Made by a program: the position numbers and the translations under genes. Under the pieces are notes generated by a model. That model saw only the letters and a list, made by a program, of their open reading frames with translations. It searched no databases and was not told where the DNA came from. 64,000 nt of DNA, taken from contig AL929603.2 of NCBI GenBank assembly GCA_000002445.1, forward strand, positions 128,001 through 192,000. Reading direction: 5' to 3'. Below are positions 1-61,571 of the stretch, one piece after another. Every line of letters starts with the position of its first letter. The stretch's first letter is position 1. This stretch comes from Trypanosoma brucei (taxonomy: Eukaryota).

Positions 1-594
1 CACGACAACATTGTGTGAGGAGAGTCACTCATATACAGATCAGTTTTGTCTTGTGTTTTGAAGGTGATGCCGCAAGTGCTTTCGATTTTCCCAGGGTATT
101 ATTTCCTTTTATTGACATGATAGGGTCATTGCCCGCAACCGCGGAGTGGAAACAGGAAACGATGCAGGATGTCAGCGTGTTGAACCGCCTGAGCGATATT
201 TTCCTGAACTTCAGTAAAGCACAGCGCCTTCCAAATATCCATGAGGGAACAATCAACTCTCCACACACCATGCAACTTTACGGGTTCCCACCCATTTTCC
301 CACTATTTGATACCTTGTTTGTTGTGGATTGCGACACAACCACCGAAGTTGAAAATCAACGAAAAATAAACGGTGGTGATGTTGCAATTCCAAACTGCTG
401 GATCACATGATAACAAAACAGGAACAGCCCTTAATATGCTCGAGAATCCTGTCCTTCTAACATGTGATGCGAATAGGGATATGTTTTTGGGAAATTTTAT
501 GAATGAATTTGGGTGGGGAGTTATTTGTGCTCAGCATGTTGCCGTCAGAAAGATGAGACGCCAACAATTGTGCAACGATACAGCGGGCAAATGA
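1..594 (+). pseudogene. RHS (retrotransposon hot spot) pseudogene, 3' portion (copy of segment at 37905..38492); reading frame broken (15..410 then 373..594)
   Basis: Near-identical to 37905..38492 and reverse-complement of 5600..6211; protein '...VVDCDTTTEVENQRKINGGDVAIPNCWIT*' aligns to intact RHS 28384 region 'FIVVNCWAMSEMRAF'; internal stop/frameshift. Confidence 0.6.
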
Positions 595-2248
595 AGTGAG
601 GAAGATCGCAAATATGTTCATTTATTTTGGGCCAACAGTATGAAACATTACCTTGTGCAATTTAATGTTAATACCGTCGCTATGTTAGCTATTGAAAATA
701 TTGCGGGGAGGGGAAGTAACCGACATGGATGTAAATCATGAAAGAGCGGCTGTGGGAAATCAATAAAAGAGAGGAAGGAGAAGAGTAAACGGGGAAAACA
801 TCAACAAAAGAGTGTGGAAACAAATAATCACGGCAGGTGATGTCACGGTATAACTCTGTGTTAGGAGGGTTGTGGACTCTATCAAAATTAACCTCTCGGC
901 AGTAAGCACAGTTAACAACGAGCGTATGATCCCTTTTTAAAATTTGGTTACTTTAATTCGTTTTTTTTTATTACTTAACGATGTTAACATTAGATACGAT
1001 ATGCATTTTTTGTAGAAGCACATATGTGTTAATGAAAACATTGCAACATTGTTTACATCAGATATTAATACTTAGCTGCCTAACCGTAATTTCCTACAGA
1101 GCGTGTCGTTTACGGTTTTCATTTCTACCAGATGGATGTCACATATTGTGTTTAATATTTTACACTGAGTGATGTGTCCGAAATATTTTTTTTTCTTAAT
1201 CGTCGACGCCCCTTTCACCTTTTCATGTATTCTCCTAATTTTTCTCTACCATTTGTTACTTAAGGTGCGCACAGATACGAATGTATGAAGGTTTCTGTGC
1301 AAGAAGCCGAGGTGTCCAGTTCACTATTTATTTGATGGAAAGTCATTATTTTGAGTGTGCGATTCGTTGTACATCCACTGGCTACCGGCACAGCGTATGT
1401 TATCACTTGCCCTATCTTTCATATGATTACTCTAAAATGATTAGAGTTCAGCGGTATGAAAAGTGTAATAATACCCGAGAAGTGCAGTTCCAACTGTTGA
1501 TGGGTAATATTTATGTTTGATTGTCAGGTGGTGATTTACTAACATGAAGTATGCAGTTTATTATGATAGGCTGAGAAGGAGGGGAATGATGATGCGTTGA
1601 AGGACGTGAGGTAACTGATAGTATTATTATTATTATTGTTTTTTTTTGTTAACTGATGTATTCCATAACATTGAGGATGCAGTGGGACTTAGGGGTGAAG
1701 CACTTTGGGAACTGTATTTGTGTTTGCATGGATGAGCTTGAGCCAATAGAACCCGCTGTCGCGTATCAACAAGAGTGGAAATTAGTGGAACAGTTTTTGT
1801 ATGTTTCTTTGTATTGTGGTGAGCTTTCGTTGATTTCCCTCTTAACTTTCGTTGTTTATTGATTTTTGTTATTTGTTGTTTCATTCATTTTGGATCGTCA
1901 GAAATGTGAGGGTGCAATGTGTTTGTTTTTGGTTTTTTTCACACCGCCCACAGTTGGGATTGGTGATGCATGAAATTCATTATTTTTATATTTGGCATAT
2001 GATAACAAGGCAAGGGAAATATTTATACAGCTGCCGTATTTTGGAATTGTTTTCCTTAATACCAAATAAGGTATAATACCGTATAACACAAACAATAGTG
2101 AATAAATATTATCTCGCTTTATTACTTTTGTTATTATATTAAACTATTCGCACACTGTTATTTTCCTCATCGGTTATTTTACTTCAGTTATTTATATTTT
2201 CAGAGAAGTAAAGGAAAGGGAAGTTAAATTAAGTTAATAATAAAATGT

Positions 2249-3073
2249 ATGCCGAGAGCCAACAATCCTGCAGCTCCACGTGGAAACGATGCAAATCAAC
2301 AAGTGGCAGGTAATATTGAAGCAGCCATGAGGAGACCACGGGATGAAAATGTACCGCCTCCTCCTCCTCCTGCTGCTGCTGCTGCTCAGCCTCCACAAAT
2401 ACGGCAGAGAACTGAAGAGAGGCCCAATTGGACAATGAATAGTAAGGTGAGGGATGTGCTGCTGGAAGATGTGCCGCTGCAACGGTATGAGGTTCTGCGT
2501 AAAATGACACTGCATGATTTATGGAGTGGCAGAAACGGAAAATGTGAGGATTCCCATGTTTGTTGAAAATCCGGGAGAATATATTACGAACGCAAGAATT
2601 CTACATGACATACAGAATCTCCACAAGTTCAGACAGTACAAAAAGATTTGTGAGCGGTTGCCTGAAGTAGAAGGAAATCTCCTCTCTACCTTAATGGGAA
2701 GGGAAATTTACTACCTCAGTCAGTGGGAGGAGAAGGGAAGAGGGGAAATAAGGGAATTTGTTGGTCCCGTGGCGAGGGGAAGGTTGGATGGAGCACTGGA
2801 GGTCGCCAAAGAAGCAAGGAAACGAGCTGCCCAACCAGCCTGTGGTGCTGTCGAACTTAAAGGAGTGTATGATTCTATATACAATGCGAAATGGAGTTAT
2901 GTGATGCCGGGTTATGATGAAGAGCCACTTGGAATGAAAGTGTTTAATGGAAAACCGCAGCGCATTTGGACCGAAGCGGAGGTGGATATAACTCCTGAAC
3001 CTGCGAATGTTGATGCAGAGATTAAGAAGGGATCCAATGGTTTAGAGATTTTTGTTCTCACTTCGGAGAAGGT
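2249..3073 (+). pseudogene. RHS pseudogene N-terminal fragment, frameshifted (2249..2566 / 2514..3119), truncated at palindrome junction after '...VLTSEK'
   Basis: Protein 'MPRANNPAAPRGNDANQQVAGN...RPRDENVPPPPPPAAAAAQPPQIRQ...EIREFVGPVARGRLDGALEVAKEARKRAAQ...LKGVYDSIYNAKWSYVMPGY...' is homologous to N-terminus of RHS ORFs at 23277 and 46089(-). Confidence 0.7.
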
Positions 3074-3140
3074 GATTTGCGCCCCGTACCGCTATGTGAA
3101 GCAGGAGTTCGAGCTTTGAATAGTGTTACGCCCCCCGCCA

Positions 3141-3944
3141 ACCTTCTCCGAAGTGAGAACAAAAATCTCCAAACCATTGGGTCTCTCCGGCACTCGTGCA
3201 TCAACATTCGCAGGTTCAGGAGTTATATCCACCTCCGCTTCGGTCCAAATGCGCTGCGGTTTTCCATTAAACACTTTCATTCCAAGTGGCTCTTCATCAT
3301 AACCCGGCATCACATAACTCCATTTCGCATTGTATATAGAATCATACACTCCTTTAAGTTCGACAGCACCACAGGCTGGTTGGGCAGCTCGTTTCCTTGC
3401 TTCTTTGGCGACCTCCAGTGCTCCATCCAACCTTCCCCTCGCCACGGGACCAACAAATTCCCTTATTTCCCCTCTTCCCTTCTCCTCCCACTGACTGAGG
3501 TAGTAAATTTCCCTTCCCATTAAGGTAGAGAGGAGATTTCCTTCTACTTCAGGCAACCGCTCACAAATCTTTTTGTACTGTCTGAACTTGTGGAGATTCT
3601 GTATGTCATGTAGAATTCTTGCGTTCGTAATATATTCTCCCGGATTTTCAACAAACATGGGAATCCTCACATTTTCCGTTTCTGCCACTCCATAAATCAT
3701 GCAGTGTCATTTTACGCAGAACCTCATACCGTTGCAGCGGCACATCCCTCGCCTTACTATTCATCGTCCAGTTGGGCCCCTCTTCAGTTCTCTGCCGTAT
3801 TTGTGGAGGCTGAGCAGCAGCAGCAGCAGCAGGAGGCGGTACATTTTCATCCCGTGGTCTCCTCATGGCTGCTTCAATATTACCTGCCACTTGTTGATTT
3901 GCATCGTTTCCACGTGGAGCTGCAGGATTGTTGGCTCTCGGCAT
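3141..3944 (-). pseudogene. Mirror copy of RHS pseudogene N-terminal fragment (other palindrome arm)
   Basis: ORFs 3092..3700(-) and 3648..3944(-) encode the same RHS N-terminal sequence as 2249..3119(+). Confidence 0.7.
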
Positions 3945-5599
3945 ACATTTTATTATTAACTTAATTTAACTTCCCTTTCCTTTACTTCTCTGAAAATATA
4001 AATAACTGAAGTAAAATAACCGATGAGGAAAATAACAGTGTGCGAATAGTTTAATATAATAACAAAAGTAATAAAGCGAGATAATATTTATTCACTATTG
4101 TTTGTGTTATACGGTATTATACCTTATTTGGTATTAAGGAAAACAATTCCAAAATACGGCAGCTGTATAAATATTTCCCTTGCCTTGTTATCATATGCCA
4201 AATATAAAAATAATGAATTTCATGCATCACCAATCCCAACTGTGGGCGGTGTGAAAAAAACCAAAAACAAACACATTGCACCCTCACATTTCTGACGATC
4301 CAAAATGAATGAAACAACAAATAACAAAAATCAATAAACAACGAAAGTTAAGAGGGAAATCAACGAAAGCTCACCACAATACAAAGAAACATACAAAAAC
4401 TGTTCCACTAATTTCCACTCTTGTTGATACGCGACAGCGGGTTCTATTGGCTCAAGCTCATCCATGCAAACACAAATACAGTTCCCAAAGTGCTTCACCC
4501 CTAAGTCCCACTGCATCCTCAATGTTATGGAATACATCAGTTAACAAAAAAAAAACAATAATAATAATAATACTATCAGTTACCTCACGTCCTTCAACGC
4601 ATCATCATTCCCCTCCTTCTCAGCCTATCATAATAAACTGCATACTTCATGTTAGTAAATCACCACCTGACAATCAAACATAAATATTACCCATCAACAG
4701 TTGGAACTGCACTTCTCGGGTATTATTACACTTTTCATACCGCTGAACTCTAATCATTTTAGAGTAATCATATGAAAGATAGGGCAAGTGATAACATACG
4801 CTGTGCCGGTAGCCAGTGGATGTACAACGAATCGCACACTCAAAATAATGACTTTCCATCAAATAAATAGTGAACTGGACACCTCGGCTTCTTGCACAGA
4901 AACCTTCATACATTCGTATCTGTGCGCACCTTAAGTAACAAATGGTAGAGAAAAATTAGGAGAATACATGAAAAGGTGAAAGGGGCGTCGACGATTAAGA
5001 AAAAAAAATATTTCGGACACATCACTCAGTGTAAAATATTAAACACAATATGTGACATCCATCTGGTAGAAATGAAAACCGTAAACGACACGCTCTGTAG
5101 GAAATTACGGTTAGGCAGCTAAGTATTAATATCTGATGTAAACAATGTTGCAATGTTTTCATTAACACATATGTGCTTCTACAAAAAATGCATATCGTAT
5201 CTAATGTTAACATCGTTAAGTAATAAAAAAAAACGAATTAAAGTAACCAAATTTTAAAAAGGGATCATACGCTCGTTGTTAACTGTGCTTACTGCCGAGA
5301 GGTTAATTTTGATAGAGTCCACAACCCTCCTAACACAGAGTTATACCGTGACATCACCTGCCGTGATTATTTGTTTCCACACTCTTTTGTTGATGTTTTC
5401 CCCGTTTACTCTTCTCCTTCCTCTCTTTTATTGATTTCCCACAGCCGCTCTTTCATGATTTACATCCATGTCGGTTACTTCCCCTCCCCGCAATATTTTC
5501 AATAGCTAACATAGCGACGGTATTAACATTAAATTGCACAAGGTAATGTTTCATACTGTTGGCCCAAAATAAATGAACATATTTGCGATCTTCCTCACT

Positions 5600-6468
5600 T
5601 CATTTGCCCGCTGTATCGTTGCACAATTGTTGGCGTCTCATCTTTCTGACGGCAACATGCTGAGCACAAATAACTCCCCACCCAAATTCATTCATAAAAT
5701 TTCTCAAAAACATATCCCTATTCGCATCACATGTTAGAAGGACAGGATTCTCGAGCATATTAAGGGCTGTTCCTGTTTTGTTATCATGTGATCCAGCAGT
5801 TTGGAATTGCAACATCACCACCGTTTATTTTTCGTTGATTTTCAACTTCGGTGGTTGTGTCGCAATCCACAACAAACAAGGTATCAAATAGTGGGAAAAT
5901 GGGTGGGAACCCGTAAAGTTGCATGGTGTGTGGAGAGTTGATTGTTCCCTCATGGATATTTGGAAGGCGCTGTGCTTTACTGAAGTTCAGGAAAATATCG
6001 CTCAGGCGGTTCAACACGCTGACATCCTGCATCGTTTCCTGTTTCCACTCCGCGGTTGCGGGCAATGACCCTATCATGTCAATAAAAGGAAATAATACCC
6101 TGGGAAAATCGAAAGCACTTGCGGCATCACCTTCAAAACACAAGACAAAACTGATCTGTATATGAGTGACTCTCCTCACACAATGTTGTCGTGCAACGTC
6201 TCTGCGCGACTGGAAAGTTACCACCCTCAATGCGGATTCAAAGTGCAGCGTGCACACATACGTTTCGGAATCTCCTGTACGATAGATGCGACCAAGGTTG
6301 ATGAATTTATGCAGCAGCAGTCTTCCAATCCATTTGCCATATGGGCGCAACGTTCCAAGATACAACACAGACATATATACATATACATATATATATGCAT
6401 GCATGACCTCCTATAAAATATGCGGTAACAGGCAATACTCTGGCATCATGCTTTAGTTTGTGAAGGAG
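5600..6468 (-). pseudogene. RHS pseudogene, portion 3' of the insertion hot spot (continues from RIME at 6469..6983)
   Basis: ORF 5784..6404(-) '...ILLHKLKHDARVLPVTAYFIG...' aligns to post-P-loop region of RHS 28384 ('FILYKLLHYDAEELPVVAYFRG'); stop and frame change (5600..5821). Confidence 0.65.
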
Positions 6469-6983
6469 AATTTTTTTTGAATTTTCTTCGTGCCTTCGTG
6501 GGAGTTTCCCCCCACTGGCGCGGCCATCAGCCATCACCGTAGAGCCCTGAAATGCTATCGGTCTGGCGACTGTGGCAGAGTCTCCCTTTTTCATTCATCC
6601 TAACACACTCTCTATAATTTTTGTTGTATTTCCGCATATGAACGGAATACAGCAGATGGGGCGAGAAGCCTCCCACCCTGGACTCTCCCAAAGATGCCAA
6701 TTGGCAATCCTTTTTTTTTGGAGTTCCACATCACCGGACAGCAGCATCTTAGTGCGGATGATACTGCTGATGGCACGCTGGCACGTGCCCAGGGACCGAC
6801 AAATGAAAAACGGTGTCCCAGCAAGACGCTGCTGATCCCTGTACTGTATGATGCCGTAGCCGGAGCACAGCAGTGTTCCCCATGAAAGGAACGCTGCTGG
6901 CTCTTGGCTTCCCCCGATGATACGGGGTACTGGACCCTGGCACCACGTTGAGGTGGCCGGCATCGCCAGGGTGTGAAGGAGAA
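6469..6983 (-). mobile_element. RIME (~515 bp, non-autonomous ingi derivative) inserted at the RHS hot spot
   Basis: 5' end CACCCTGGCGATGCCGGCCACCTCAACGTGGTGCCAGGG (rc at 6946..6983), 3' end ...GGCACGAAGAAAATTC + A8 (rc at 6469..6492); ingi 5' ~250 bp joined to ingi 3' ~250 bp with junction inside the 2A codons (GDVE|LQKK). Confidence 0.85.
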
Positions 6984-7500
6984 GTGAGCCGATGGCCAGT
7001 GACTTACTGATTCTGGAGTTTCCAATCACAATGTAAGGATTTGGTGCGTGTCTTAGTATTCGAGTTTCCTCAGCTGGCCAAGCGCAGAGCTTTCTTTCCA
7101 CAACATTTCACAGTCTCCAGTCCTTTCTCTGAATGAGAATGTCATTGTGAATTTAAATATTAAACTGTGAGTACGACCACTCCATTTAAGATGTTGGAAC
7201 CGTTGCTTCACCTCCTTCCCGTGCGTTCCGGCTTATGTTCAAAAGTTTCCTCAATTTTGGGGACGACATTAACTTCTTCATCTTTCCACATTATATCATC
7301 AGCACGCGTTCCATCAACAAACTTCATGCCCAGCATTTGAGTTCCATTGTCCATTATAATGTCACTCCACTTTGAATTGCATACGGAGCCATATAAACTG
7401 AAAACATTATCACCTCTTGCTTCACGTCCTCTCAGACGCTTTTCTCCCAGAATAAGTGTCTGGTGTCCTGAAGCAAAATGTTGAGTATTGTTCTTGATTA
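6984..7500 (-). pseudogene. Degenerate RHS pseudogene 5' fragment upstream of RIME (degenerate P-loop 'IVIGNSRISKS')
   Basis: ORF 6595..7101(-) 'MERKLCAWPAEETRILRHAPNPYIVIGNSRISKSLAIGSLLLHTL|AMPATSTW..'; upstream 7150..7480 translates (with stops) to 'LYGSVCNSKWSDIIMDNGTQMLGMKFVDGTRADDIMWKDEEVNVVPKIEE..' matching RHS 28384 residues ~50-110. Confidence 0.65.
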
Positions 7501-8660
7501 AAATATTTGCTTTACTTTTCTAACTAATTCGGCTTCTTAGTGTTTCCTTTTAAAGGATACAAAAGCTTTATCGCAAAGGGATTCCTATACTAAAGGACGC
7601 ACATGGTTACTCAGATAGAACAGTTATAAATCTCAAATAAAGTTCAGTAACCTTTCCTTACACATTTTTTTATCCAATGAAAATATTTCCACAGTGCTCT
7701 ACTGCAGCATTGTGGCCATTAAAAAAATAGTTTTGGCGCTGCCTCAGGTATTCACTGGCATTTCCCCTCTTTTCAACGCATGTTTACAAGCAGAGGCATG
7801 CCTCATTGCTGTCACACCTTAGCGTTATTGAATCTATTTTCATACCTCCAAGGACCATACAGCATGAGATTCTATTTTCAAATACATTAATTGATCCACG
7901 AGATTTGGTATTTTATTCATTTCATCTGACTGTTGGTTTTCCTCATTCTCTGAGTTCGCAAACACCACTGAGCTAATTCCGCGCAAATGTACACATGTAA
8001 CTTCAAGGTAATATATGTTTATCACTGTTGTATTCTTTCGTATTTCTTTTGTTGGCTGCTGGTGCCCAGTAAGTTCCTATCATAAAATATGTATCATCTT
8101 ACAAGACACAGCAATAATGGTCATGATAAAGTTTCTGAATTCCCTGTATTTAATGTTGGACGCTGGTGTGAGGAATGGATTCAAAAACAAACAAACAAAT
8201 AAACAAACTGAAGCCTCCTGTTCGTAAATGAAGAGTTTGTGTTCACATCGTTGGAGAGTGTCGGCACCAGGAGATATACTTTTCTCGCTTTGCAGTGTGT
8301 GTTTCACTACAGTTTCCGTTCGTTCCGCCATATGGGAAAATAAATTGTTTTGGATATTTGAGTCTGCGCCGCCTTCCCCACTCAAAGCACCTTGCATAAT
8401 GAGTATTATTGTAGTAAATTTTGAGTTCTCATGAGGATTTCACACTTCACACGCGCAAAAAAAAATTGTTACAATGACTCGATTACTGTTGCACACATGG
8501 AAATGGTGGCTGCGATAGAAGCTTCCCTTAATTTGTGTCATTTTCGTGAGAGTTGAGTTTTAAGCAACATTGTGCCTCCTAAACCTCGATACGCATTTTA
8601 AAAAAATGAGATTAAAAAAAAGACTCACTATTTGATACAAAATGTAAGGGAACTTGGCAT

Positions 8661-8690
8661 TTAATAATAATTATTATTATTGAACACACA
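8661..8690. repeat. (AAT)n/(ATT)n microsatellite; mirror copy at 61536..61572 is a longer pure (AAT)12
   Basis: aataataattattattatt vs aataataataataataataataataataataataa. Confidence 0.8.
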
Positions 8691-9311
8691 TTCATATGTT
8701 AATTTTTTTCCATCACCGTTAGGAACGTAATCATCACAATTTAAAGAACCACCAATACGCAAATATTTCCATACGCCACTTGACTGTCTTCGAAGCGCTG
8801 CCCAATTGGTTTTGAATGTAAGTGCAATACAAAAGAACAAAAACATTTGAGAGAAAGAATTCAGTAATAAAAAATATGGTTAAAGTTCCCCATCACCTTT
8901 CTGAAACCTTTTGAACTTTGCGCATCTGCACGCTCAAGGCAAATCAAAGTTTCTCTAACCATTGATGTTTACATTATTTCCAATCGACCATGTTTCTTGA
9001 AACAGATGTTGGAAAGAAAATACAAATAGTGATGGATGAAAACCTGAATATTAATACTGACAATAATAATGGTAATAATAATGGTAATAAAAAATAAATA
9101 GATTAATTAATTAAATTACATTCCTTCAGTGCATTGCACTTATGCAGGGATTATGACTCGTACAAACCTGTCTCATAGTTATTTATGAATTCATGACAAA
9201 CAACTCGGTAATGATGCGCCATGAAATGTTTAATCAACGAATCTTACATTCCACGTATAATACGATGCAAACCGAACAAACATCAGTCACAAAAGCGATT
9301 TGTTTAAAAAT

Positions 9312-9341
9312 GATATATATATATATATATTTTTTTTTTTT
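9312..9341. repeat. (AT)9-T11 simple repeat (mirror at ~60880..60912)
   Basis: gatatatatatatatatatttttttttttt. Confidence 0.8.
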
Positions 9342-10086
9342 GCGAGCGTGTAGAAGCAAATAAATATAACACTGTGCGCAGAGGATGAAGGGTACAAACA
9401 AATGAAACAACGATAAAAAAATTATTTACAAGATTAAAAGAAAGTGCCGTTTGAATAAAGAGAAATTAAACAAGAGGTGGTGACAAATCGTATGCTTTTA
9501 ATATACTTACTGCAGATATTTAGTTTGTAACGATTAGTATTATATAAACAGCAACACATGTGATGAAACTCAGGAATATATCAACTAAACCTCAGATTGT
9601 TCGACAGACAAGCAAAAAAAAAAAAGAAAAGAAGAATAATATGAAAAAAAAAACATCTGGTGTTAATGTCGCACAACATATTTCAACAGTTGATTCACAC
9701 TACAAATTTCCTATAAACATACGATTTAAATCACCACCTGCACATTCCCTTCCGCGTATCGTTGTTTTGACTTCAAACAGCTTACAAGTATAATTTGCTG
9801 ATGCCATCTTTACATAATAAAATGAAACTATTAAAGTTTATCACAGTCCGCAAATTACGGGTTTTAGGTTGCAGTCGTCGGTTGTTCTTCCCTCTGCATA
9901 ATGGTCTCTCATTAACATACAAATATCTCTCAACAAAAATATTCACATTAGAGAGATTAGGTGATGAATGATTTGAGTCAACTCCTTCCACTTGTAACTT
10001 CATCACGGCATGGTTGCGGCTCACAACAGAAGGAAGGGTGTTTTTACTCTTAGGTTGAATGATACCTGCAGTTCCAACATAATTCG

Positions 10087-10106
10087 ATATATATATATAT
10101 ATATAT
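10087..10106. repeat. (TA)10 microsatellite (mirror 60136..60158)
   Basis: tatatatatatatatatata. Confidence 0.8.
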
Positions 10107-12213
10107 ATTCTTTATTTCTACTTTCTGCACTTCTCCACTTTCGTGTTGTCCATACAACAAATATCTCTTTACCCGATGGTGAATGAGATGTGGTGTGCTG
10201 TTTAGAAACTGAACTACATTTTTAGCTGAGAGTGGAAAAGCTGAAAAAGTGTTTTGGTTTGAAGAGTGAGTCAGTTGAAGCATTCAGCATTTGATTAACT
10301 CATAAAACATATAATTTATATTTAACCTTCCAATACCATCGCTCGAACAGAGCAGTTTCTTGTCATAAAGACATTAACCACATGCTAAAATTTTCCACGC
10401 CACCAAACCACACTTATATAAACTCGAAAAAATAAATAATAAATAAGCGGTTGCATATATCATACCACTTCTTGCAATGTAAACCGAAAATAGTGCGTCG
10501 CGGGAGTGAGCTTGAAATTAGTAAACGAAAAGATTCCTGTATCATAAAAGTCTTTCACTATTTCATGAAGTATTTCAATCTCCAACTAAACATCATGCAA
10601 AACACCTTAAAGCCACTCCACTTTCCAATATATAAAAATCCCACCAATGTTACTTTCATGTGCCATCGCAGTGCATCCTCATGCTTTCAATTTCAGTAGT
10701 TATTCACTTCCCAAGTTCCGTAAGCATTTACTGCTAATAATGTAAGCGAAACAATTTTGGAATATGATATTCAAGTGACAGTTGTTCTTCGATTTCACAT
10801 GCATCTCCCTTCAGATGCAGCGCTGCTTTTCGTCTCTTTTTTTTTTCTCAAATAAATAAATAACATTTGATATTTTACTATTTCGAATCGGTGTGGATTT
10901 GTATAACTTAAATGTGCGGCTGTCTGTAACTTATCAGTTAGCAGCAGTGTCTAATTAATTTAAGTGTGTGAGGAGGAAATCCTTTTGTTGTTGTTGTCAA
11001 ATAAAAAGTAAATTTGAAGAAATACATAATTTACCTCAGCAGTGTTTTCTGGAAAGTCATAAACATATACGGATACGGTAAGAAAAGGAAAATAAAATGA
11101 ATGAAAGGATTTGCTCTCGCCTTCAGTTCTTCTGAGGCATCATGTTGTAAGAAAGAAAATAATATTTCCCAAAACCAGTGAAATGGTTAATACACTTTCC
11201 CATGCACATGTATCACAAATGTTAATGGGTTAATGTGGTACACAACCCTTTGCTGTGCAAGGGAATTCGGATTGTATGACATCTTCACAAAAGTTTGGCC
11301 CAAATAATTCTGAAAGGAAATGTAATAAAATAAATTATGTTATTAAAAAACCAAACAAATACAACAAGTTATAATATAATATTTTAATGAAACGAGAATA
11401 TTCAATCGCACTGTTTGAGAATATAGATATACCAGTGGCAAGTGTAAAAAAGAATCATGAGACACGTAATGTGTTGTTTTATCCTCTTCCATGTAAGAAC
11501 TTGGTGGTCAAGATGCTGCTCTGATATAATTTATTGTAAAGTCACTCTGTCATTTCTTTCAGTAAAACAAATAATAATAAGAATAATGAAATATATTCAC
11601 TATACTTTAATGGTATATAAACTTCACTTCCTCATATCATTGACAGGCATACAGTACTGCAGAATGTTGAGTGCTTTTACTTTTCGGGTGTGGTTATGAG
11701 TAAAAATTAAATGTGAATGTTGTGTTTCATGTAATAACAATAAGAACGATAGAAATAGTAATAATATTAATTCAATATATATGTGTGAATGTGTAGTCAT
11801 AAAGTTAGAAGGGCATACAATATAATGATATATTCATTTGGTATGGTTGTAATATGAATGATCATAATACAATAATTACTACGCTTACAACTAAAATACA
11901 AATTTCCATTGAGAAAAAAGCTTGTCACATATACACACACGCTCACCTTCCTAACTGTTCTTTATTCTTCACAATATATGATGGGTATAACTTAGTAAAA
12001 TACGAAGCACTTAAATAACCGTAATGAAATCCTTGTATTTCTCGTATTTAAGATAGTGTAACATACAATACCATCCATGTGAATTGTTACTGGTATCTGT
12101 CCGAATAATGGTGTCTACAGTGAGCAAACTACTCGAACGGGCTGTTAAATTTAATAACGTGTTCTTAGCAATAAGTGGTTACAATTATACAAAGTGAAGC
12201 AATGGGTCACATA

Positions 12214-15200
12214 TTAACGGATATGCACCCTCTTTTTTCTCAGTTCAACATAAACATCAAACCAGCCATACACGTTCCTGAGATCAACCCAAGAAAGACA
12301 TGGCAATTCCAAAAGACTCCTGAATCCTTCTCTGAGCCTTCTGACATCATGGCTCTGACTGAGATGCAATTTTTTAATTGATTTTATTCTCCCAAGTGGT
12401 GTAATATCATTAAGATTTTTACAATAAGAAAGATTGAGCTCCTCAATGGTATGGGGTGGTTGAATTTCCCTGAGGTCTTCATCTGTAATGAGAGAATCCA
12501 TAAGGTTAAGAATGCGTAACCTCGGAAGAGTGAAAAGTGCACTAAACCCCTGCGTTAGCTCGTCGCATTCCCCTATATGCAACTCCTCCAGTGTCTTGAT
12601 ATTAGCAAGACATGAAGCATCGGTCATATCACACGATTCAAGGTTGAGTGTGACGAGGGATTTGCATCTGCTGATATAATATCCACCGTCACGCGTCGTA
12701 ACACTGGTGGATTCCAAGTTGAGCACACGAAGTCGTGGTAATTCGCTTAGTGCTTCCCAGCCTGAAGTTATGCGGTGACATCCGCTCAGATTCAATTCCT
12801 CCAGTGCCGTAAGGTTTGATATACTAGATATGTCTGTTAGTTTAAAATTGTAGCGTAGGTTGAGTGACGTAATGAATCGGGACAGACAAATTTCATCAAG
12901 TGTGTTATCGCTAATGTCAGATAAACCCAGATCCAGCGATCTAAGCCGTGGCAGTTTCCCAAGTGTCCAAGCTCCTTCCAGGGTATCACCGCAATCCCGC
13001 AATGACAATTCCTCAAGGGATGTGATGTTGGAGAGGGGTGTTGCGTCTGTTAACTCCTCGCGCGTTTCAATATTAAGCCTCACGAGAGATTTGCTCGTTC
13101 CAATAGATTCAACAGATATATCACTACCTCTCGCATTTCGCAGATGGAGAAAACGCAACCGTGACAGTGTACCAAGGGCATTCAGTCCCTTTAGGCCGTC
13201 TGAGTACTTCCTAACTATCAGCTCCTCCAGTGATTGAATCTCATACACCACCGTAACATCTGACAACTTCTCACACCGGAAAAACTGCAGTTTCACCAGC
13301 TTTTTGCAACTGCTGAGGCAAGCTATATCTTTAGCGGTGATGTTAGTATCAGATAGAATTGCTACACGTAGTAGAGGCAGCTTTCCGAGCGACTCCCAGC
13401 CTTTTCGTATTCCATTGCAAAAGTTAACATTCAGTTCCTCCAGTGTCGATAAGGAAGATAATACTGATATATCGGTTACCCATTTGCAATGTGATAAGTT
13501 GAGTGACTGCAGCGATTTTGATTCGGAAATATTTTTAGTTACATCATCATTGATATCCGTATATTTCAGATTCAGTACTCGAAGACGCGGCAGACAGGAA
13601 AATGACAGTACATCATATATTCCACACACAGAATCAAGTACCAGTTCCTCCAGCGTCGCAATGTTAGAGAGAGCTTTCACAGATATGAATCCCATTGACC
13701 TCTCAAGATTCAGTTTCACAAGTGACTTACTATTCCCAAGGATGGAACATTGTTGTGCATCACTGTCTCCCATGTAACATTCCTTCATGCTCAGGATACG
13801 TACCTTGGGAAGCTTTCCAAGAGTTTCAATACCTTTTCTGATGTTATGGCAACAATCAAGGTTCAACTCCTCAAGCATAGTAATGGTAGAAAGTGCTGTG
13901 ACGTCTGTTATATCTTTGCAAAACGCAAGGTTGAGTGTATTCAAAGACTTGCACTCGCTAACGTGCTGTATGTTTTCATCATTAATGCGTGTATTCGACA
14001 GTGTGGCCACACGCAGTTGGTGAAGTGTGCCAAATACATTCCAACCGGATGTTACATTACAGCAGTTGTCAATGTTGAGTTCCTCCAATGCTGTAAGGGA
14101 AGCTATTGCAGAAATAGATGTTATTTTCTTGCAATGCGAAAGATTTAATGATACAAGTGGGCTTGAGCATGTGCAGATATTCTCAAGGGAATTATCATCA
14201 ACTTGTGTCCGTCCCAAATCCAGTACACGAAGCTGCAGTAGCCTGCCCAGTGTTCCCATTCCAGAGGTTACTTTGTCACAGTAGTGGAGATTCAGTTCCT
14301 CAAGTGTAACAAGGTTTGAGAGAGGCGTGACACCACCGAACCCTTTGCAGTTCTCAAGACTGAGCCTTACAAATGAGTTACCATTCCCTAGTGAACCAAT
14401 AACTGAATCTTCCAACTGTACACCCTTTATGTTCAACACACAAAGCCGTGGCAACTCTCCAAGAACGCTCAGCCCTTTTCTGATGTTTGAACAACTATCA
14501 AGATTCAACTCCTCAAGCGTAGTGATGTTAGAGAGAGTTGTAACATCAAGTAACTTATTGCAGAAAGAAAGATCAAGCGTAACAAGGTTTTTGCACTTGC
14601 TGAAATGGGATATGTCTCTATCAGTAATATGTGTATTCGAGAGGATTGCCACATGTAGCTGCTGAAGTTTTTCAATTGCTTCCCATCCTGCATTTATCCT
14701 AATACAGTTGCTCAGATTCAGTTCATTCAATGCTTCGAGGCTTGAAATATGGGACACATTTGTCATTTTCCAACAATGGGAAAGGTTGAGGGACACCACT
14801 GTCTGCGATAGGCATAAACTTCTGAGAGACTCATTGTCGGTATTTGTGCCAGACAGGTCCAACATTTTAAGCTGTGGCAGGTTTCCGAGACATCCAATTC
14901 CTGCGTCAATACCCGTGCAGCCGTGAAGGCTTAGTTTTTCCAGAGTCAAAATGTTGGCGAGTGCTTCCACATTACTCAGTCCCGTGAAACTCTCCAGAGT
15001 TAACTGTAAAAGGGATTTTGAGGCACCAATACCAATAAAGTCAAGGGACGAGATGTGTACCTCCTTTACGTTAAGCACACGCAGGTATGGCAGTGTACCA
15101 AGGCAACCCACACCACTAATGATGTCAGCACATTTTTGAATATTCAGCTCCTCGAGTGTAACAATGCTGGATAAGAGTGTCATATCACCAAAGCCTGCGC

Positions 15201-16395
15201 AGTTATCAAGACTGACCTTTACAAGTAATCCACCAGTCCCAACTGAATCGAGAGATGGCTCGCTCAGGTGCACATCCTTCATGTGCAATATACGGAGTCT
15301 TGGTAATGCCCACACAACGCCTATCCCTCGTGTTATTCGGCGACAACCGTTAAGGTTCAATTCCTCAATAGCAGTGGCATTGGAGAGTGGATTGATATCT
15401 GTCAGCTGAATACAATAAGAAATGTTCAGCCTTTCAAGCGATCCACAGTCACACAAATCCTTCAGACAATTATCTTCCACAGGAACACCACTCAAGTCAA
15501 GTATACGCAGTCGCAACAACATGCCAAGTGTTCCTATTCCCTTCGTTATGTGGCAATTGCTTAGATTCAACTCTTCCAGTGCTGCAAGTTGTGAAATCGG
15601 TGTTGCGTCCGTGACATTGTTGCATTCAGATACACTCAGTTTGGACAGTTTAACACATGCACTTATTTCCTCCACACAGCTGTCGTCAATATTTGTGGAA
15701 TTTAACTCAAGACACTTTAGGTTAGTTAAGCGAGAGATTTCCCTGATATTTGTCAGTTGCATGGTGTCAGTAATAGCCAACTCCTCCAATGTTCCAACAC
15801 TGAATAAGTGACGGGCGTCATTGTTGTCAATATTGTTGCTCCTGAGACGAAGCCTTTTCAACATATCAAGGTTATTCAAAGATATCATATTCACAAGTTT
15901 ACCATGTGGATATTCAATGCGTAACTCTTCTAACTGTTTTAGCTTACTGACTCCTTGTAAGTCGAAGTTCTCATCCTTTGATAGCGCAATGGTTAATTTC
16001 TTAGCTTGAATGCGGCCACAGAGTGAGGAAAGAGCACCTTCATATAGTCCTTCGTCACTGAAGGCATTATCAGCAGCATTATATAATGTTACTCTATGTA
16101 TGCATTCAGTGTCATCACACACACCACCTTGCCTTTCGCCACTCATAGCTGTGAGATTACTCATGAAACACCTAAGTGCCTTCACACTGCTTTCCAGCCG
16201 TGTCGTTTGTTTAATCAATTTCTTATGCTCATTCAGTAATGATACCACAGTTTCATCATTACTGGCGTCACGCGTCTCTTCGGTGATTGTAATGGTGGTG
16301 AGTTTATTTTGTTCAGTAGTTGATGGTTCCTTTAAAGCTTCTGACTGCTCAGGTGATGAGCTGCGCTGTCGCTTTCTTCCTTGGTTTCCTGACAT
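12214..16395 (-). CDS. Leucine-rich repeat protein (LRRP, ESAG8-like LRR units, ~1393 aa from Met 'MSGNQGRKRQRSS'); ORF is open further upstream to 16560 but that is probably 5' UTR
   Basis: 4.2-kb uninterrupted ORF; ~45 tandem ~24-aa units of form L..L.EL(N/D)L..C..I(T/R).G......L..L; N-terminal basic NLS-like RKRQR and coiled-coil-like segment; no C-terminal RING (so not ESAG8 itself); polypyrimidine tract + AG upstream of ATG. Confidence 0.8.
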   Translation of the reverse strand: MSGNQGRKRQRSSSPEQSEALKEPSTTEQNKLTTITITEETRDASNDETVVSLLNEHKKLIKQTTRLESSVKALRCFMSNLTAMSGERQGGVCDDTECIHRVTLYNAADNAFSDEGLYEGALSSLCGRIQAKKLTIALSKDENFDLQGVSKLKQLEELRIEYPHGKLVNMISLNNLDMLKRLRLRSNNIDNNDARHLFSVGTLEELAITDTMQLTNIREISRLTNLKCLELNSTNIDDSCVEEISACVKLSKLSVSECNNVTDATPISQLAALEELNLSNCHITKGIGTLGMLLRLRILDLSGVPVEDNCLKDLCDCGSLERLNISYCIQLTDINPLSNATAIEELNLNGCRRITRGIGVVWALPRLRILHMKDVHLSEPSLDSVGTGGLLVKVSLDNCAGFGDMTLLSSIVTLEELNIQKCADIISGVGCLGTLPYLRVLNVKEVHISSLDFIGIGASKSLLQLTLESFTGLSNVEALANILTLEKLSLHGCTGIDAGIGCLGNLPQLKMLDLSGTNTDNESLRSLCLSQTVVSLNLSHCWKMTNVSHISSLEALNELNLSNCIRINAGWEAIEKLQQLHVAILSNTHITDRDISHFSKCKNLVTLDLSFCNKLLDVTTLSNITTLEELNLDSCSNIRKGLSVLGELPRLCVLNIKGVQLEDSVIGSLGNGNSFVRLSLENCKGFGGVTPLSNLVTLEELNLHYCDKVTSGMGTLGRLLQLRVLDLGRTQVDDNSLENICTCSSPLVSLNLSHCKKITSISAIASLTALEELNIDNCCNVTSGWNVFGTLHQLRVATLSNTRINDENIQHVSECKSLNTLNLAFCKDITDVTALSTITMLEELNLDCCHNIRKGIETLGKLPKVRILSMKECYMGDSDAQQCSILGNSKSLVKLNLERSMGFISVKALSNIATLEELVLDSVCGIYDVLSFSCLPRLRVLNLKYTDINDDVTKNISESKSLQSLNLSHCKWVTDISVLSSLSTLEELNVNFCNGIRKGWESLGKLPLLRVAILSDTNITAKDIACLSSCKKLVKLQFFRCEKLSDVTVVYEIQSLEELIVRKYSDGLKGLNALGTLSRLRFLHLRNARGSDISVESIGTSKSLVRLNIETREELTDATPLSNITSLEELSLRDCGDTLEGAWTLGKLPRLRSLDLGLSDISDNTLDEICLSRFITSLNLRYNFKLTDISSISNLTALEELNLSGCHRITSGWEALSELPRLRVLNLESTSVTTRDGGYYISRCKSLVTLNLESCDMTDASCLANIKTLEELHIGECDELTQGFSALFTLPRLRILNLMDSLITDEDLREIQPPHTIEELNLSYCKNLNDITPLGRIKSIKKLHLSQSHDVRRLREGFRSLLELPCLSWVDLRNVYGWFDVYVELRKKRVHIR

Positions 16396-16479
16396 TGTAG
16401 TTCCCGTTTCCGATTCCTTGAGGTGCTGAGTGTTGAGGAAATGCTTTTTCTTTTTTAATAATAGAACTAAGCGATGAAT

Positions 16480-16530
16480 CAAACGAGGGGGGGAAGTGTT
16501 ATAAGGAAGTAATTGAGGTGCATGCCAAAA
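16480..16530 (-). promoter_or_regulatory. Putative trans-splice acceptor region (polypyrimidine tract + AG) for LRRP
   Basis: Mirror of 53721..53763 'cttccttataacacttccccccctcgtttgattcatcgcttAG' ~80 nt upstream of ATG; typical kinetoplastid SL-addition context. Confidence 0.3.
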
Positions 16531-27239: not shown

Positions 27240-27310
27240 GATATATTTCCTTATACTTCATATATTCCCTATGTTTCTTGTTCCCTATATATTCCATATA
27301 TTCCATATTT
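27240..27310. repeat. Short degenerate tandem repeat (unit ~ATATTCCMT) in AT-rich intergenic DNA
   Basis: tatttccttatacttcatatattccctatgtttcttgttccctatatattccatatattccatattttc. Confidence 0.5.
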
Positions 27311-37353: not shown

Positions 37354-37625
37354 TAAACGAATAACAAAAATCAAAACAAAAGGATTGCTAATTGACATCT
37401 TTGGGAGAGTCCAGGGTGGGAGGCTTCTCGCCCCATCTGCTGTATTCCGTTCATATGCGGAAATACAACAAAAATTATAGAGGGTGTGTTAGGATGAATG
37501 AAAAAGGGAGACTCTGCCACAGTCGCCAGACCGATAGCATCTCAGGGCTCTACGGTGATGGCTGATGGCCGCGCCAGTGAGGGGAAACTCCCACGAAGGC
37601 ACGAAGAAAATTCTAAAAAAAAAAA

Positions 37626-38492
37626 TTCTCCTTCACAAACTAAAGCATGATGCCAGAGTATTGCCTGTTACCGCATATTTTATAGGAGTTCATGCATGCA
37701 TATATATATATATATATATGTCTGTGTTGTATCTTGGAACGTTGCGCCCATATGGCAAATGGATTGGAAGACTGCTGCTGCATAAATTCATCAACCTTGG
37801 TCGCATCTATCGTACAGGAGATTCCGAAACGTATGTGTGCACGCTGCACTTTGAATCCGCATTGAGGGTGGTAACTTTCCAGTCGCGCAGAGACGTTGCA
37901 CGACAACATTGTGTGAGGAGAGTCACTCATATACAGATCAGTTTTGTCTTGTGTTTTGAAGGTGATGCCGCAAGTGCTTTCGATTTTCCCAGGGTATTAT
38001 TTCCTTTTATTGACATGATAGGGTCATTGCCCGCAACCGCGGAGTGGAAACAGGAAACGATGCAGGATGTCAGCGTGTTGAACCGCCTGAGCGATATTTT
38101 CCTGAACTTCGGTAAAGCACAGCGCCTTCCAAATATCCATGAGGGAACAATCAACTCTCCACACACCATGCAACTTTACGGGTTCCCACCCATTTTCCCA
38201 CTATTTGATACCTTGTTTGTTGTGGATTGCGACACAACCACCGAAGTTGAAAATCAACGAAAAATAAACGGTGGTGATGTTGCAATTCCAAACTGCTGGA
38301 TCACATGATAACAAAACAGGAACAGCCCTTAATATGCTCGAGAATCCTGTCCTTCTAACATGTGATGCGAATAGGGATATGTTTTTGAGAAATTTTATGA
38401 ATGAATTTGGGTGGGGAGTTATTTGTGCTCAGCATGTTGCCGTCAGAAAGATGAGACGCCAACAATTGTGCAACGATACAGCGGGCAAATGA
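37626..38492 (+). pseudogene. RHS pseudogene, portion 3' of hot spot downstream of ingi-1 (stop at 38306, frame change 38271..38492)
   Basis: 'ILLHKLKHDARVLPVTAYFIGVHACIYIYIYMS...NCWIT*' aligns to intact RHS 28384 'FILYKLLHYDAEELPVVAYFRGVAAYIFEKS...VVNCWAMSEMRAF'; contains (TA)10 at ~37700..37720. Confidence 0.7.
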
Positions 38493-39274
38493 AGTGAGGA
38501 AGATCGCAAATATGTTCATTTATTTTGGGCCAACAGTATGAAACATTACCTTGTGCAATTTAATGTTAATACCGTCGCTATGTTAGCTATTGAAAATATT
38601 GCGGGGAGGGGAAGTAACCGACATGGATGTAAATCATGAAAGAGCGGCTGTGGGAAATCAATAAAAGAGAGGAAGGAGAAGAGTAAACGGGGAAAACATC
38701 AACAAAAGAGTGTGGAAACAAATAATCACGGCAGGTGATGTCACGGTATAACTCTGTGTTAGGAGGGTTGTGGACTCTATCAAAATTAACCTCTCGGCAG
38801 TAAGCACAGTTAACAACGAGCGTATGATCCCTTTTTAAAATTTGGTTACTTTAATTCGTTTTTTTTATTACTTAACGATGTTAACATTAGATACGATATG
38901 CATTTTTTGTAGAAGCACATATGTGTTAATGAAAACATTGCAACATTGTTTACATCAGATATTAATACTTAGCTGCCTAACCGTAATTTCCTACAGAGCG
39001 TGTCGTTTACGGTTTTCATTTCTACCAGATGGATGTCACATATTGTGTTTAATATTTTACACTGAGTGATGTGCCCGAAATATTTTTTTTTCTTAATCGT
39101 CGACGCCCCTTTCACCTTTTCATGTATTCTCCTAATTTTTCTCTACCATTTGTTACATAAGGTGCGCACAGATACGATTGTATGAAGGTTTCTGTGCAAG
39201 AAGCCGAGGTGTCCAGTTCACTATTTATTTGATGGAAAGTCATTATTTTGAGTGTGCGATTCGTTGTACATTCA

Positions 39275-39787
39275 CTTTTTTTTTTTTTAAAAGTTGTCTT
39301 CGTGCCTTCGTGGGAGTTTCCCCTCACTGGCGCGGCCATCAGCCATCACCGTAGAGCCCTGAGATGCTATCGGTCTGGCGACTGTGGCAGAGTCTCCCTT
39401 TTTCATTCATCCTAACACACCCTCTATAATTTTTGTTGTATTTCCGCATATGAACGGAATACAGCAGATGGGGCGAGAAGCCTCCCACCCTGGACTCTCC
39501 CAAAGATGCCAATTGGCAATCCTTTTTTTTTCGGAGGTCCACATCACCGGACAGCAGCATCTTAGTGCGGATGATATACTGCTGATGGCACGCTGGCACG
39601 TGCCCAGTGACAGAAAAATGAAAAACGGTGTCCCAGCAAGACGCTGCTGATCCCTGTGCTGTATGATGCCGTAGCCGGAGCACAGCAGTGTTCCCCATGA
39701 AAGGAACGCTGCTGGCTCTTGGCTTCCCCCGATGATACGGGGTACTGGACCCTGGCACCACGTTGAGGTGGCCGGCATCGCCAGGGT
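39275..39787 (-). mobile_element. RIME (minus strand) inserted into RHS 3' pseudogene segment; lies directly 3' of ingi-2 separated by 10 bp TATAACAAAA
   Basis: rc 5' end CACCCTGGCGATGCCGGCCACC at 39766..39787; T14 (poly(A) on minus) at 39275..39288; the 3' segment preceding poly(A) ('GGCACGAAGACAACTTTT') is a variant of the canonical 'GGCACGAAGAAAATTC'; the RIME interrupts the RHS 3' pseudogene segment at ~39273 (copy at 1..1369 continues 'ccactggctaccggc'). Confidence 0.85.
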
Positions 39788-39797
39788 GTATAACAAA

Positions 39798-61532: not shown

Positions 61533-61571
<39 letters not shown>

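What the first reader, a model, noticed from the sequence alone, without database searches (positions are those of the whole stretch)
1..6211. Second palindrome with a 67-bp unique spacer, broken inside an RHS N-terminal region
Positions 1..3073 are the reverse complement of 3141..6211. Both arms end at the same RHS codon context, '...GLEIFVLTSEK'. Between them lies a 67-bp non-palindromic spacer (3074..3140), GATTTGCGCCCCGTACCGCTATGTGAAGCAGGAGTTCGAGCTTTGAATAGTGTTACGCCCCCCGCCAA. This spacer is homologous to nothing else I recognise.

The arms show small differences, including a (CCT)n(GCT)n length change and a 15-nt indel. The left arm runs off the window, so the palindrome is at least 3.1 kb per arm. 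On its inner side it abuts RIME(-) and RHSψ(-).

The breakpoint lies at the point where RHS proteins normally continue 'VLTSE(M/K)GWPY'. This is the signature of a hairpin-capped break or fold-back inversion inside an RHS gene.
Basis: seen in the sequence. Interest (0 to 1): 0.55.

Follow-up and report, generated by a model that had tools for sequence, protein, structure and literature searches.

The report
Recent fold-back duplication in RHS pseudogene
This is a real 6.2-kb DNA palindrome in the retrotransposon-hot-spot (RHS) gene cluster of Trypanosoma brucei chromosome 1, most likely a recent repair scar where a broken, already dead RHS pseudogene was copied back on itself with a 63-base orphan insert at the join; it is a familiar kind of rearrangement in a notoriously unstable region.

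Summary
Window 1-3073 is the reverse complement of 3141-6193 (not 6211), around a 67-nt centre that is unique in the window. The window is T. brucei TREU927 chromosome 1, inside its RHS/LRRP/ingi cluster.

Each arm holds the 3' part of one RHS pseudogene, an intergenic stretch, and the first about 825 nt of a second RHS pseudogene (RHS-b). Both RHS-b copies stop at ...LEIFVLTSEK, in the middle of the Pfam RHS_N domain and about 250 nt before the retroelement hot spot.

The arms differ in 39 alignment columns. Thirty-seven of these lie in two patches, and both versions of each patch occur in other RHS paralogues. So these are two real genomic copies, not one sequence read twice.

The right arm keeps four more RHS bases (TGGC). 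The remaining 63 nt match neither RHS nor anything else I could search, so a simple fold-back inside an intact RHS gene is excluded.

The best reading is a recent inverted duplication made by break or fork repair with strand switching and a short insertion, followed by paralogue gene conversion. No independent data cross the centre, and the origin of the insert is unknown. This is a known kind of event and of modest interest.

The parts
1..3073 (+). Left arm of the palindrome, cut by the window edge. It holds the 3' part of an RHS pseudogene (RHS-a type, ORF 15-410), intergenic DNA, and the RHS-b 5' region.
   Evidence: 1-1379 also matches a third copy at 37899-39276 at 99.5%.
2249..3073 (+). 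RHS-b pseudogene, left copy. It starts at ATG 2249, has a shared 26-nt frameshifting deletion near 2500, and is truncated after ...LEIFVLTSEK.
   Evidence: ORFs. Pfam RHS_N (PF20445) positions 1-69 of 127 and DUF7578. Paralogue alignment.
3018..3044 (+). Patch specific to the left arm: 11 substitutions in 27 nt, DAEIKKGSNG versus DARVPERPNG in the right arm at 3170-3196. It contains a BamHI site (3030-3035) that the right arm lacks.
   Evidence: The left version resembles T. b. equiperdum paralogues in L001 and L003. The right version resembles the window copy at 23808-24076.
2357..2467 (+). Second variable patch (mirror 3747-3837): a 6-nt (CCT)2 indel, 5 substitutions, and a 15-nt segment that the right arm has lost between GATGTGC direct repeats.
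   Evidence: Both states occur in paralogues.
3074..3136 (.). Orphan 63-nt centre (56% G+C), neither RHS nor arm sequence. 3085-3102 and 3113-3130 are 13/18 self-complementary, almost on the palindrome axis.
   Evidence: No match in the window, in about 90 kb of T. b. equiperdum chromosome 1, in plasmids or E. coli, in metagenome or prokaryote genome contigs, or in Rfam. Not RHS-like. Internal symmetry.
3137..3140 (-). Four further RHS bases (TGGC, the start of the GW codons) kept only by the right arm.
   Evidence: Paralogue alignments end at 3137 on this side and at 3073 on the other.
3141..6193 (-). Right arm of the palindrome. RHS-b pseudogene, right copy, runs from about 3965 down to 3141 on the minus strand, followed by intergenic DNA and the RHS-a 3' part (ORF 5784-6404).
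   Evidence: Logan contig L005 from run ERR7929157 independently covers 4247-6497 at 99.3%.
6194..6470 (-). Continuation of the right-arm unit (RHS-a 3' part). Its mirror image would lie beyond the window's left edge.
   Evidence: 4815-6720 equals the reverse complement of 37372-39276 at 98.9%.
6471..6974 (-). RIME retroelement inserted at the hot spot of RHS-a. The RHS-a 5' part follows from 6975 to about 7850 on the minus strand.
37372..39276 (+). Third copy of the outer arm sequence (ingi 3' end plus RHS 3' part plus intergenic DNA). It is cut at the base equivalent to 1379 by a retroelement poly(A) end, and serves as an outgroup for the two arms.
   Evidence: The same truncation is present in T. 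b. equiperdum (L006).

Best explanation
This is a genuine and evolutionarily recent inverted, fold-back-type duplication in the RHS/LRRP/ingi cluster of T. brucei TREU927 chromosome 1.

Proposed sequence of events:
1. A double-strand break or collapsed replication fork occurred in RHS-b, an RHS pseudogene that was already frameshifted. RHS-b lies downstream of a RIME-bearing RHS in a tandem array on the minus strand.
2. The broken 3' end, ending ...GAGAAGGTTGGC, acquired about 63 nt of non-RHS sequence. This was most likely a short stretch copied from an ectopic template, as in microhomology-mediated break-induced replication or end joining.
3. The end then switched to the complementary strand of the same or the sister duplex at a 3-nt microhomology (ACC/GGT). 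It copied back outward through RHS-b, the intergenic DNA and the upstream RHS 3' part. This created the left arm.
4. Later, short tracts were converted from other RHS paralogues, and a 15-nt slippage deletion made the two coding-region patches differ.

The element is a structural scar made of two convergent dead gene fragments. It is not a gene.

Shown: the palindrome, the shared breakpoint, the foreign centre, the paralogue-like patches and the recency.
Inferred: the break, the order of the steps, and the template switch.
For: - Palindrome of at least 3.07 kb per arm with a 67-nt centre.
- Both arms stop within 4 nt of each other in RHS-b, and the right arm keeps TGGC of the normal continuation GGTTGGCC.
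- Both arms share a private 26-nt frameshifting deletion absent from five paralogues, so they are copies of one another and the gene was dead beforehand.
- The outer 2356 nt differ by only 1 SNP and 1 T-run indel. This compares with about 0.5-1% divergence from the third copy and 4.3% between the arms of the neighbouring large palindrome.
- At the SNP the left arm carries the derived base, while the right arm, the third copy and Logan contig L005 agree.
- 37 of the 39 differing columns fall in two patches, and each variant is found in other RHS copies. This argues for two real copies with a history inside the trypanosome.
- The centre is not RHS, not vector and not E. coli.
- The window has no Ns.
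- The arm sequence from the RHS-a 3' part into the RHS-b upstream region is contiguous in an independent Illumina-derived contig.
- RHS copies in this cluster demonstrably recombine: a block is inverted between TREU927 and T. b. equiperdum.
Against: - No independent read or assembly crosses the centre. The two junction ORFs are not in the 15-billion-protein collection.
- The donor of the 63 nt was not found, so 'templated insertion' is unproven.
- 3 nt of microhomology is uninformative.
- The left arm's outer end, and therefore what the event did to the rest of the chromosome, lies outside the window.
- The fetched parts of T. b. equiperdum chromosome 1 hold no equivalent palindrome. That fits recency but gives no confirmation.
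- The near-identity of the arms could reflect arm-to-arm gene conversion rather than youth.
Confidence: 0.6

Rival explanations
1. Classical fold-back or hairpin-capped break with a native spacer. RHS-b had already been truncated after ...GGTTGGC by an older, unrelated junction. The 63 nt are simply the DNA that lay next to it. A later break just beyond them folded back on GGT/ACC and was extended.
For: The final structure is the same as in the preferred model. The right arm plus spacer reads as one continuous strand. Truncated and rearranged RHS pseudogenes are common in this window.
Against: It needs two independent events within 67 nt of each other. No copy of such a pre-existing RHS-b/63-nt junction was found in the window, in the T. 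b. equiperdum loci or in the Logan contig.
Confidence: 0.2
2. Sister-chromatid fusion, the first step of a breakage-fusion-bridge cycle. A chromatid break in RHS-b was replicated, and the two sister ends, resected by 0 and 4 nt, were joined by microhomology-mediated end joining with a 63-nt filler. The dicentric later broke, and the broken end was healed from another subtelomere.
For: The 4-nt offset between arm ends is what unequal resection of two identical ends would give. The cluster is rich in nested inverted duplications. From my own knowledge, not checked here: RHS clusters sit next to polymorphic subtelomeres, and T. brucei joins ends by microhomology rather than classical non-homologous end joining.
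Against: The outer end of the left arm and any terminal deletion are off the window. The neighbouring palindrome is about 50 times more diverged, so it does not belong to the same cycle. The filler shows no templating from the flanks.
Confidence: 0.1
3. Assembly or cloning artefact: a chimeric or fold-back clone or read, or a mis-join of two RHS copies in the Sanger-era assembly.
For: No independent data cross the centre. Long palindromes are hard to clone and sequence. The region is highly repetitive.
Against: - The arms are not identical. They differ in patches that match natural paralogue variants, so one molecule was not simply read twice.
- Only 180 nt separate the two arm-specific patches across the centre, so a single Sanger read would link them.
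- The centre is not vector, E. coli or any prokaryotic sequence searched.
- Two unrelated copies would not end within 4 nt of each other by chance.
- There are no Ns.
Confidence: 0.08
4. Inversion by homologous recombination between two pre-existing inverted RHS paralogues. This is the mechanism that flipped block 23833-32144 between strains.
For: Such inversions do occur in this cluster.
Against: Recombination between inverted repeats inverts the DNA between them. It does not create two copies truncated at the same base, sharing a private 26-nt deletion and more than 2 kb of identical non-coding flank.
Confidence: 0.02

Closest known systems
Fold-back or inverted duplications with short spacers made by break repair or template switching. 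Examples are palindromic amplification in yeast, fold-back inversions in tumours and human constitutional inverted duplications, and Leishmania linear amplicons with inverted duplications (Laffitte et al. 2014, listed in the references of PMC11739655).
   Same: Two adjacent inverted copies share one breakpoint. There is a short asymmetric centre with microhomology of a few bases at the switch point.
   Different: Here the centre is not the native sequence of the locus but a 63-nt orphan. The Leishmania events start from pre-existing inverted repeats and give extrachromosomal amplicons, whereas this one is integrated in a megabase chromosome. No copy-number or terminal-deletion data are available.
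The seven long inverted repeats of the T. brucei TREU927 genome catalogued by Tschudi et al. 2012 (PMC3447711, Table 3)
   Same: Same genome. Arms of kilobase size are nearly identical. Those repeats yield TbAGO1-bound siRNAs, and their authors noted the puzzling sequence identity.
   Different: None of the seven is on chromosome 1, so this palindrome is not in that list. Reads from ingi and RHS were pooled separately there. The catalogued repeats span several kb between listed coordinates, whereas this one has only 67 nt between its arms. siRNA output from this locus has not been examined.
RHS pseudogenes of T. brucei (Bringaud et al. 2002, cited from memory; Pfam RHS_N PF20445, RHSP PF07999)
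   Same: Both inner arm ends are RHS N-terminal regions, with RHS_N positions 1-69 and DUF7578. The next RHS outward carries a RIME exactly at the family's hot spot.
   Different: RHS-b is not interrupted by a retroelement. It is cut about 250 nt upstream of the hot spot and mirrored.
Palindromic cores of T. brucei mini- and intermediate chromosomes (Wickstead et al. 2004, listed in the references of PMC11739655)
   Same: Large-scale inverted symmetry in a trypanosome chromosome, thought to arise by fold-back or inverted duplication.
   Different: Those cores are built from 177-bp satellite repeats and organise whole small chromosomes. This is a local 6-kb event in unique and RHS sequence of a megabase chromosome.

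Membership tests
Fold-back (inverted) duplication from break or fork repair | Two adjacent copies in inverted orientation with high identity | tested here: met
   1-3073 versus 3141-6193, 39 differing columns in 3074.
Fold-back (inverted) duplication from break or fork repair | Both copies end at the same breakpoint | tested here: met
   Homology to RHS paralogues ends at 3073 on the left and 3137 on the right, a 4-nt offset.
Fold-back (inverted) duplication from break or fork repair | The spacer is the native sequence that followed the arm in the progenitor | tested here: not met
   Only 4 nt (TGGC) continue RHS. The other 63 nt score at shuffle level against nine paralogues in both orientations, and the RHS_N match ends at the break. 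This would still be met if the progenitor had itself been rearranged, which cannot be tested here.
Fold-back (inverted) duplication from break or fork repair | Short inverted microhomology at the switch point | tested here: inconclusive
   GGT/ACC, 3 nt, at the inner arm ends. This is too short to be informative.
Fold-back (inverted) duplication from break or fork repair | Spanning molecules exist in genomic DNA; copy-number step or distal loss | not testable with these tools
   No reads are available. The junction ORFs are absent from public assemblies indexed here. The Logan contig stops about 1.1 kb short of the centre.
T. brucei long inverted repeats that give siRNAs (Tschudi 2012) | Listed among the seven catalogued repeats | tested here: not met
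   Table 3 of PMC3447711 lists repeats on chromosomes 2, 7, 8, 10 and 11 only.
T. brucei long inverted repeats that give siRNAs (Tschudi 2012) | Near-identical arms of 0.4-10 kb | tested here: met
   At least 3.07 kb per arm; the outer 2356 nt differ at 2 positions.
T. brucei long inverted repeats that give siRNAs (Tschudi 2012) | Produces Argonaute-bound small RNAs | not testable with these tools
   No small-RNA data could be mapped. The literature only says that RHS genes and pseudogenes are strong siRNA sources and targets.
RHS (retrotransposon hot spot) gene family, pseudogene | RHS N-terminal domain | tested here: met
   PF20445 at E = 1.1e-20 and PF24466 at E = 2.8e-10 in ORF 2514-3119.
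RHS (retrotransposon hot spot) gene family, pseudogene | P-loop domain (RHSP) and retroelement hot spot present | tested here: not met
   RHS-b ends at profile position 69 of 127 of RHS_N, about 84 codons before the hot spot seen in the 43858-46089(-) RHS-ingi fusion. It is therefore a truncated pseudogene fragment.
Assembly or cloning artefact | Arms identical, because one molecule was read twice | tested here: not met
   39 differing columns, clustered and paralogue-like.
Assembly or cloning artefact | Vector, adaptor or host sequence at the join | tested here: not met
   No match in PLSDB plasmids, E. coli genomes or GTDB genomes.

The most novel reading that the evidence does not exclude
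The palindrome may be a strain-specific, very recent product of a breakage-fusion-bridge or fold-back cycle. It would then be the youngest of a series of such events that built the nested inverted architecture of the chromosome 1 RHS/LRRP cluster. Read-through transcription across its 67-nt centre would make a hairpin RNA with a stem of about 3 kb, and this would feed the abundant RHS-directed siRNA pool. On this reading a repair scar has become an RNAi trigger that restrains the RHS and retroelement family.
Probability: 0.12. Interest if true: 0.55.

Novelty: new member of a known kind. Interest (0 to 1): 0.3.

Why it matters
If genomic reads confirm it, this junction is a clean, datable, base-resolved example of how trypanosome RHS and subtelomere-proximal clusters rearrange. 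It shows an inverted duplication with an inserted orphan segment, followed by patchy gene conversion from paralogues.

It would also add a long inverted repeat that the published survey of this genome did not list. RHS small RNAs are abundant in T. brucei, so the palindrome is a plausible hairpin-RNA source.

It does not reveal a new mechanism or a new gene. Its main value is as an annotated structural feature and as a caution for read mapping in this region.

Tried and rejected
1. Spacer as ordinary RHS sequence. Local alignments to nine paralogues in both orientations scored no better than shuffles.
2. Spacer copied from nearby DNA. The longest exact matches in 64 kb are 10-11 nt, which is about the chance expectation. 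Nothing was found in about 90 kb of T. b. equiperdum chromosome 1.
3. Spacer as vector, host or contaminant. No hits in plasmids, E. coli, GTDB genomes or JGI metagenomes.
4. Spacer as a known RNA. Only a sub-threshold snR37 match caused by the hairpin itself.
5. Spacer as a fragment of a protein-coding gene. phmmer with the one fully open + frame against 1.84 billion proteins gave only two weak repeat-protein hits (37% identity where reported, E about 1e-5). The other open frame was not searched.
6. Fetching TREU927 DNA left of the window or other assemblies of the centre. The exact-protein look-ups failed.
7. Finding the palindrome in T. b. equiperdum. Records 24298-63047 and 65571-93879 of CM010672.1 were covered. 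They hold only the retroelement-truncated copy of the outer arm sequence and no centre. Walking further was blocked.
8. Break at the retroelement hot spot. Rejected: it lies about 250 nt upstream.
9. Literature. Bringaud 2002, Hall 2003, El-Sayed 2003 and Wen 2011 are not held. No held paper mentions this palindrome.
10. Weak self-complementarity of the spacer about the palindrome axis (13/18 matches; shuffles reach this in 0.8% of trials within 2 registers). I noticed this first and tested it afterwards, so I treat it as a hint only.

Full report
**Where the window comes from.** The 1448-aa leucine-rich-repeat ORF at 12214-16560(-) is 100% identical to XP_846402.1/CAB95333.1 of Trypanosoma brucei brucei TREU927, on a 1,064,672-bp record. 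The 675-aa ORF at 28384-30411 is RHS5a (XP_846406.1). ORF 8080-8397(-) is XP_846401.1. The window is therefore part of chromosome 1, in its RHS/LRRP/ingi cluster. From memory of the chromosome I paper, which is not held here, this is the roughly 160-kb region made of a few gene families.

The window has no Ns. It contains two full ingi elements (32433-37625(+) and 39804-44996(-)), two RIMEs and at least eight RHS N-terminal regions.

**The observation.** The palindrome is real.
- 1-3073 and 3141-6193 are reverse complements around 67 nt.
- The right end is 6193, not 6211, because the right arm is 20 nt shorter.
- The left arm is cut by the window edge.
- The right-hand unit continues to 6720, as shown by a third copy at 37372-39276.
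- A second gene for the identical LRRP protein is not on record. The LRRP to the left (XP_846398) is only 91% identical. The near-perfect symmetry therefore cannot extend through the mirror of the LRRP gene at 12214-16560, that is, not as far as about 13 kb from the centre.

**Anatomy.** Read outward from the centre, each arm contains three parts.
- About 825 nt of an RHS 5' coding region, which I call RHS-b. It has Pfam RHS_N positions 1-69 of 127 plus DUF7578.
- About 2.2 kb of upstream and intergenic DNA.
- The 3' part of the preceding RHS, whose reading frame ends in an RHS-like C-terminus (my reading of the ORFs; no Pfam family matched it).

On the right, that preceding RHS carries a RIME exactly at the family's hot spot (...SLLLHTL|AMPATSTW). 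The arms are thus a piece of a tandem RHS array, mirrored. Both RHS-b copies share a 26-nt frameshifting deletion that five paralogues lack. RHS-b was therefore already dead when it was duplicated. The break follows ...LEIFVLTSEK, where paralogues continue GWPY, about 84 codons before the retroelement hot spot.

**The differences between the arms.** There are 39 differing columns in 3074: one SNP, one T-run indel, and two patches at 2357-2467 and 3018-3044. Between and outside the patches, the arms are identical over 550 nt and about 2350 nt respectively.

In both patches, each arm's version is a variant seen in other RHS copies of the window or of T. b. equiperdum. The 15-nt indel is a deletion between GATGTGC direct repeats. 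This is the pattern of short gene-conversion tracts from paralogues plus one slippage event. It is not sequencing noise, and it is not one molecule read twice.

At the single outer SNP the left arm is derived: the right arm, the third copy and an independent contig agree with each other. The outer arms differ by about 0.08%. That compares with 0.5-1% to the third copy and 4.3% between the arms of the large neighbouring palindrome, 6724-22711 versus 47517-63473. The event is recent, or the arms are being homogenised.

**The centre.** All paralogues align to the left arm up to 3073 and to the right arm up to 3137. The right arm thus keeps TGGC of the normal GGTTGGCC, and the right arm plus centre is the likelier original strand. 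The remaining 63 nt (3074-3136, 56% G+C) matched nothing I could search:
- not the window;
- not five T. b. equiperdum chromosome 1 loci;
- not plasmids or E. coli;
- not metagenome or prokaryote contigs;
- not Rfam;
- not RHS downstream sequence in either orientation;
- not a protein in the open + frame.

Within the centre, 3085-3102 and 3113-3130 are 13/18 complementary in a register one base off the palindrome axis. Shuffles reach this in 0.8% of trials near the axis. I noticed this first and tested it afterwards, so it is only a hint. As expected, the centre folds as a long hairpin.

**Independent evidence.** A Logan contig from run ERR7929157 (L005) matches 4247-6497 at 99.3% and 1-1946 at 99.6%. 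The arm sequence, with the RHS-a 3' part running on into the RHS-b upstream region, therefore exists in independent reads. The contig stops before the coding part. Nothing independent crosses the centre, and both junction ORFs are absent from the protein collection.

In T. b. equiperdum (CM010672.1, 24298-63047 and 65571-93879) the cluster is recognisable but arranged differently. Block 23833-32144 is inverted, the two LRRP units are direct, and the ingi(+)/outer-arm-copy/ingi(-) module sits elsewhere. No palindrome centre of this type is present there.

**Mechanism.** Two copies that share a private deletion and end within 4 nt of each other must derive from each other through a strand switch at a break. 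Recombination between separate inverted RHS genes, which did invert a block between strains, cannot produce that.

A plain fold-back in an intact RHS is excluded, because the spacer is not RHS. I therefore favour a break or fork collapse in RHS-b, about 63 nt of synthesis on an unknown template or another kind of filler, and then a switch to the complementary strand at GGT/ACC with copying outward. Confidence is 0.6 for this class of event.

Three variants cannot be separated with the data in hand:
- an older junction with a native spacer (0.2);
- fusion of sister chromatids with unequal resection, as in a breakage-fusion-bridge cycle (0.1);
- an artefact (about 0.08). This is unlikely given the paralogue-like arm differences, the absence of foreign sequence, and the mere 180 nt that separate the two arm-specific patches across the centre.

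**Comparison with what is known.** The structure works like the fold-back inverted duplications described in yeast, human and Leishmania. It departs from the textbook form in its non-native centre.

It resembles the seven long inverted repeats that Tschudi et al. catalogued in this same genome and showed to give siRNAs. It is not among them: none is on chromosome 1, and RHS and ingi reads were pooled separately. RHS genes and pseudogenes are heavily represented among trypanosome siRNAs. A hairpin transcript from this locus is therefore plausible but untested.

**Verdict.** This is a new example of a known kind of rearrangement in a region known to be unstable. It is of modest interest unless the centre proves to be a templated insertion with an identifiable donor, or the locus proves to be an siRNA source.

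Noticed in passing
window 6724-22711 and 47517-63473: A much larger and older palindrome. The arms are about 16 kb at 95.7% identity, separated by 24.8 kb. Each arm carries an LRRP gene (12214-16560(-) and 53680-58029(+)) at 92.4% amino-acid identity. Its left arm begins right after the RIME that flanks the small palindrome.
   Followed up: partly
window 32433-37625(+) and 39804-44996(-): Two nearly full-length ingi elements in inverted orientation (98% identical). Each is inserted at the hot spot of an RHS gene (31732-32432(+) and 44997-46089(-)). Between them lie 2.2 kb that hold the third copy of the palindrome's outer arm sequence plus a RIME(-) at 39278-39789.
   Followed up: partly
window 39276/39277; L006 about 18281: The third copy of the outer arm sequence is cut at exactly the same base (equivalent to window 1379) by a retroelement poly(A) end in both TREU927 and T. 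b. equiperdum. That junction is therefore older than the split of the two strains, unlike the small palindrome.
   Followed up: partly
window 23833-32144 versus L001 2067-10413 (CM010672.1): This 8-kb block, which includes RHS5a, is inverted in T. b. equiperdum relative to TREU927. The breakpoints lie in RHS N-terminal regions: L001 carries a hybrid RHS whose 5' part resembles the window copy at 45347-46356. This is an inversion polymorphism caused by recombination between inverted RHS copies.
   Followed up: partly
L004 2700-9017 (CM010672.1 about 68270-74587), between window 52876 and 52860 equivalents: T. b. equiperdum has 6.3 kb of extra DNA inside the LRRP-bearing unit. It holds small called genes with adenylate-cyclase-like and DUF1181 Pfam hits, and is absent from both TREU927 arms.
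   Followed up: no
window 3085-3102 and 3113-3130: The orphan centre is itself weakly self-complementary (13 of 18) in a register 1 nt off the palindrome axis. It also carries a direct repeat TT(G/A)CGCCCC near both ends (3077-3085 and 3126-3134).
   Followed up: partly
window 63242-64000: A third ingi starts at the hot spot of the RHS pseudogene that ends the right arm of the large palindrome, where the left arm has a RIME instead. The window ends inside this ingi.
   Followed up: no
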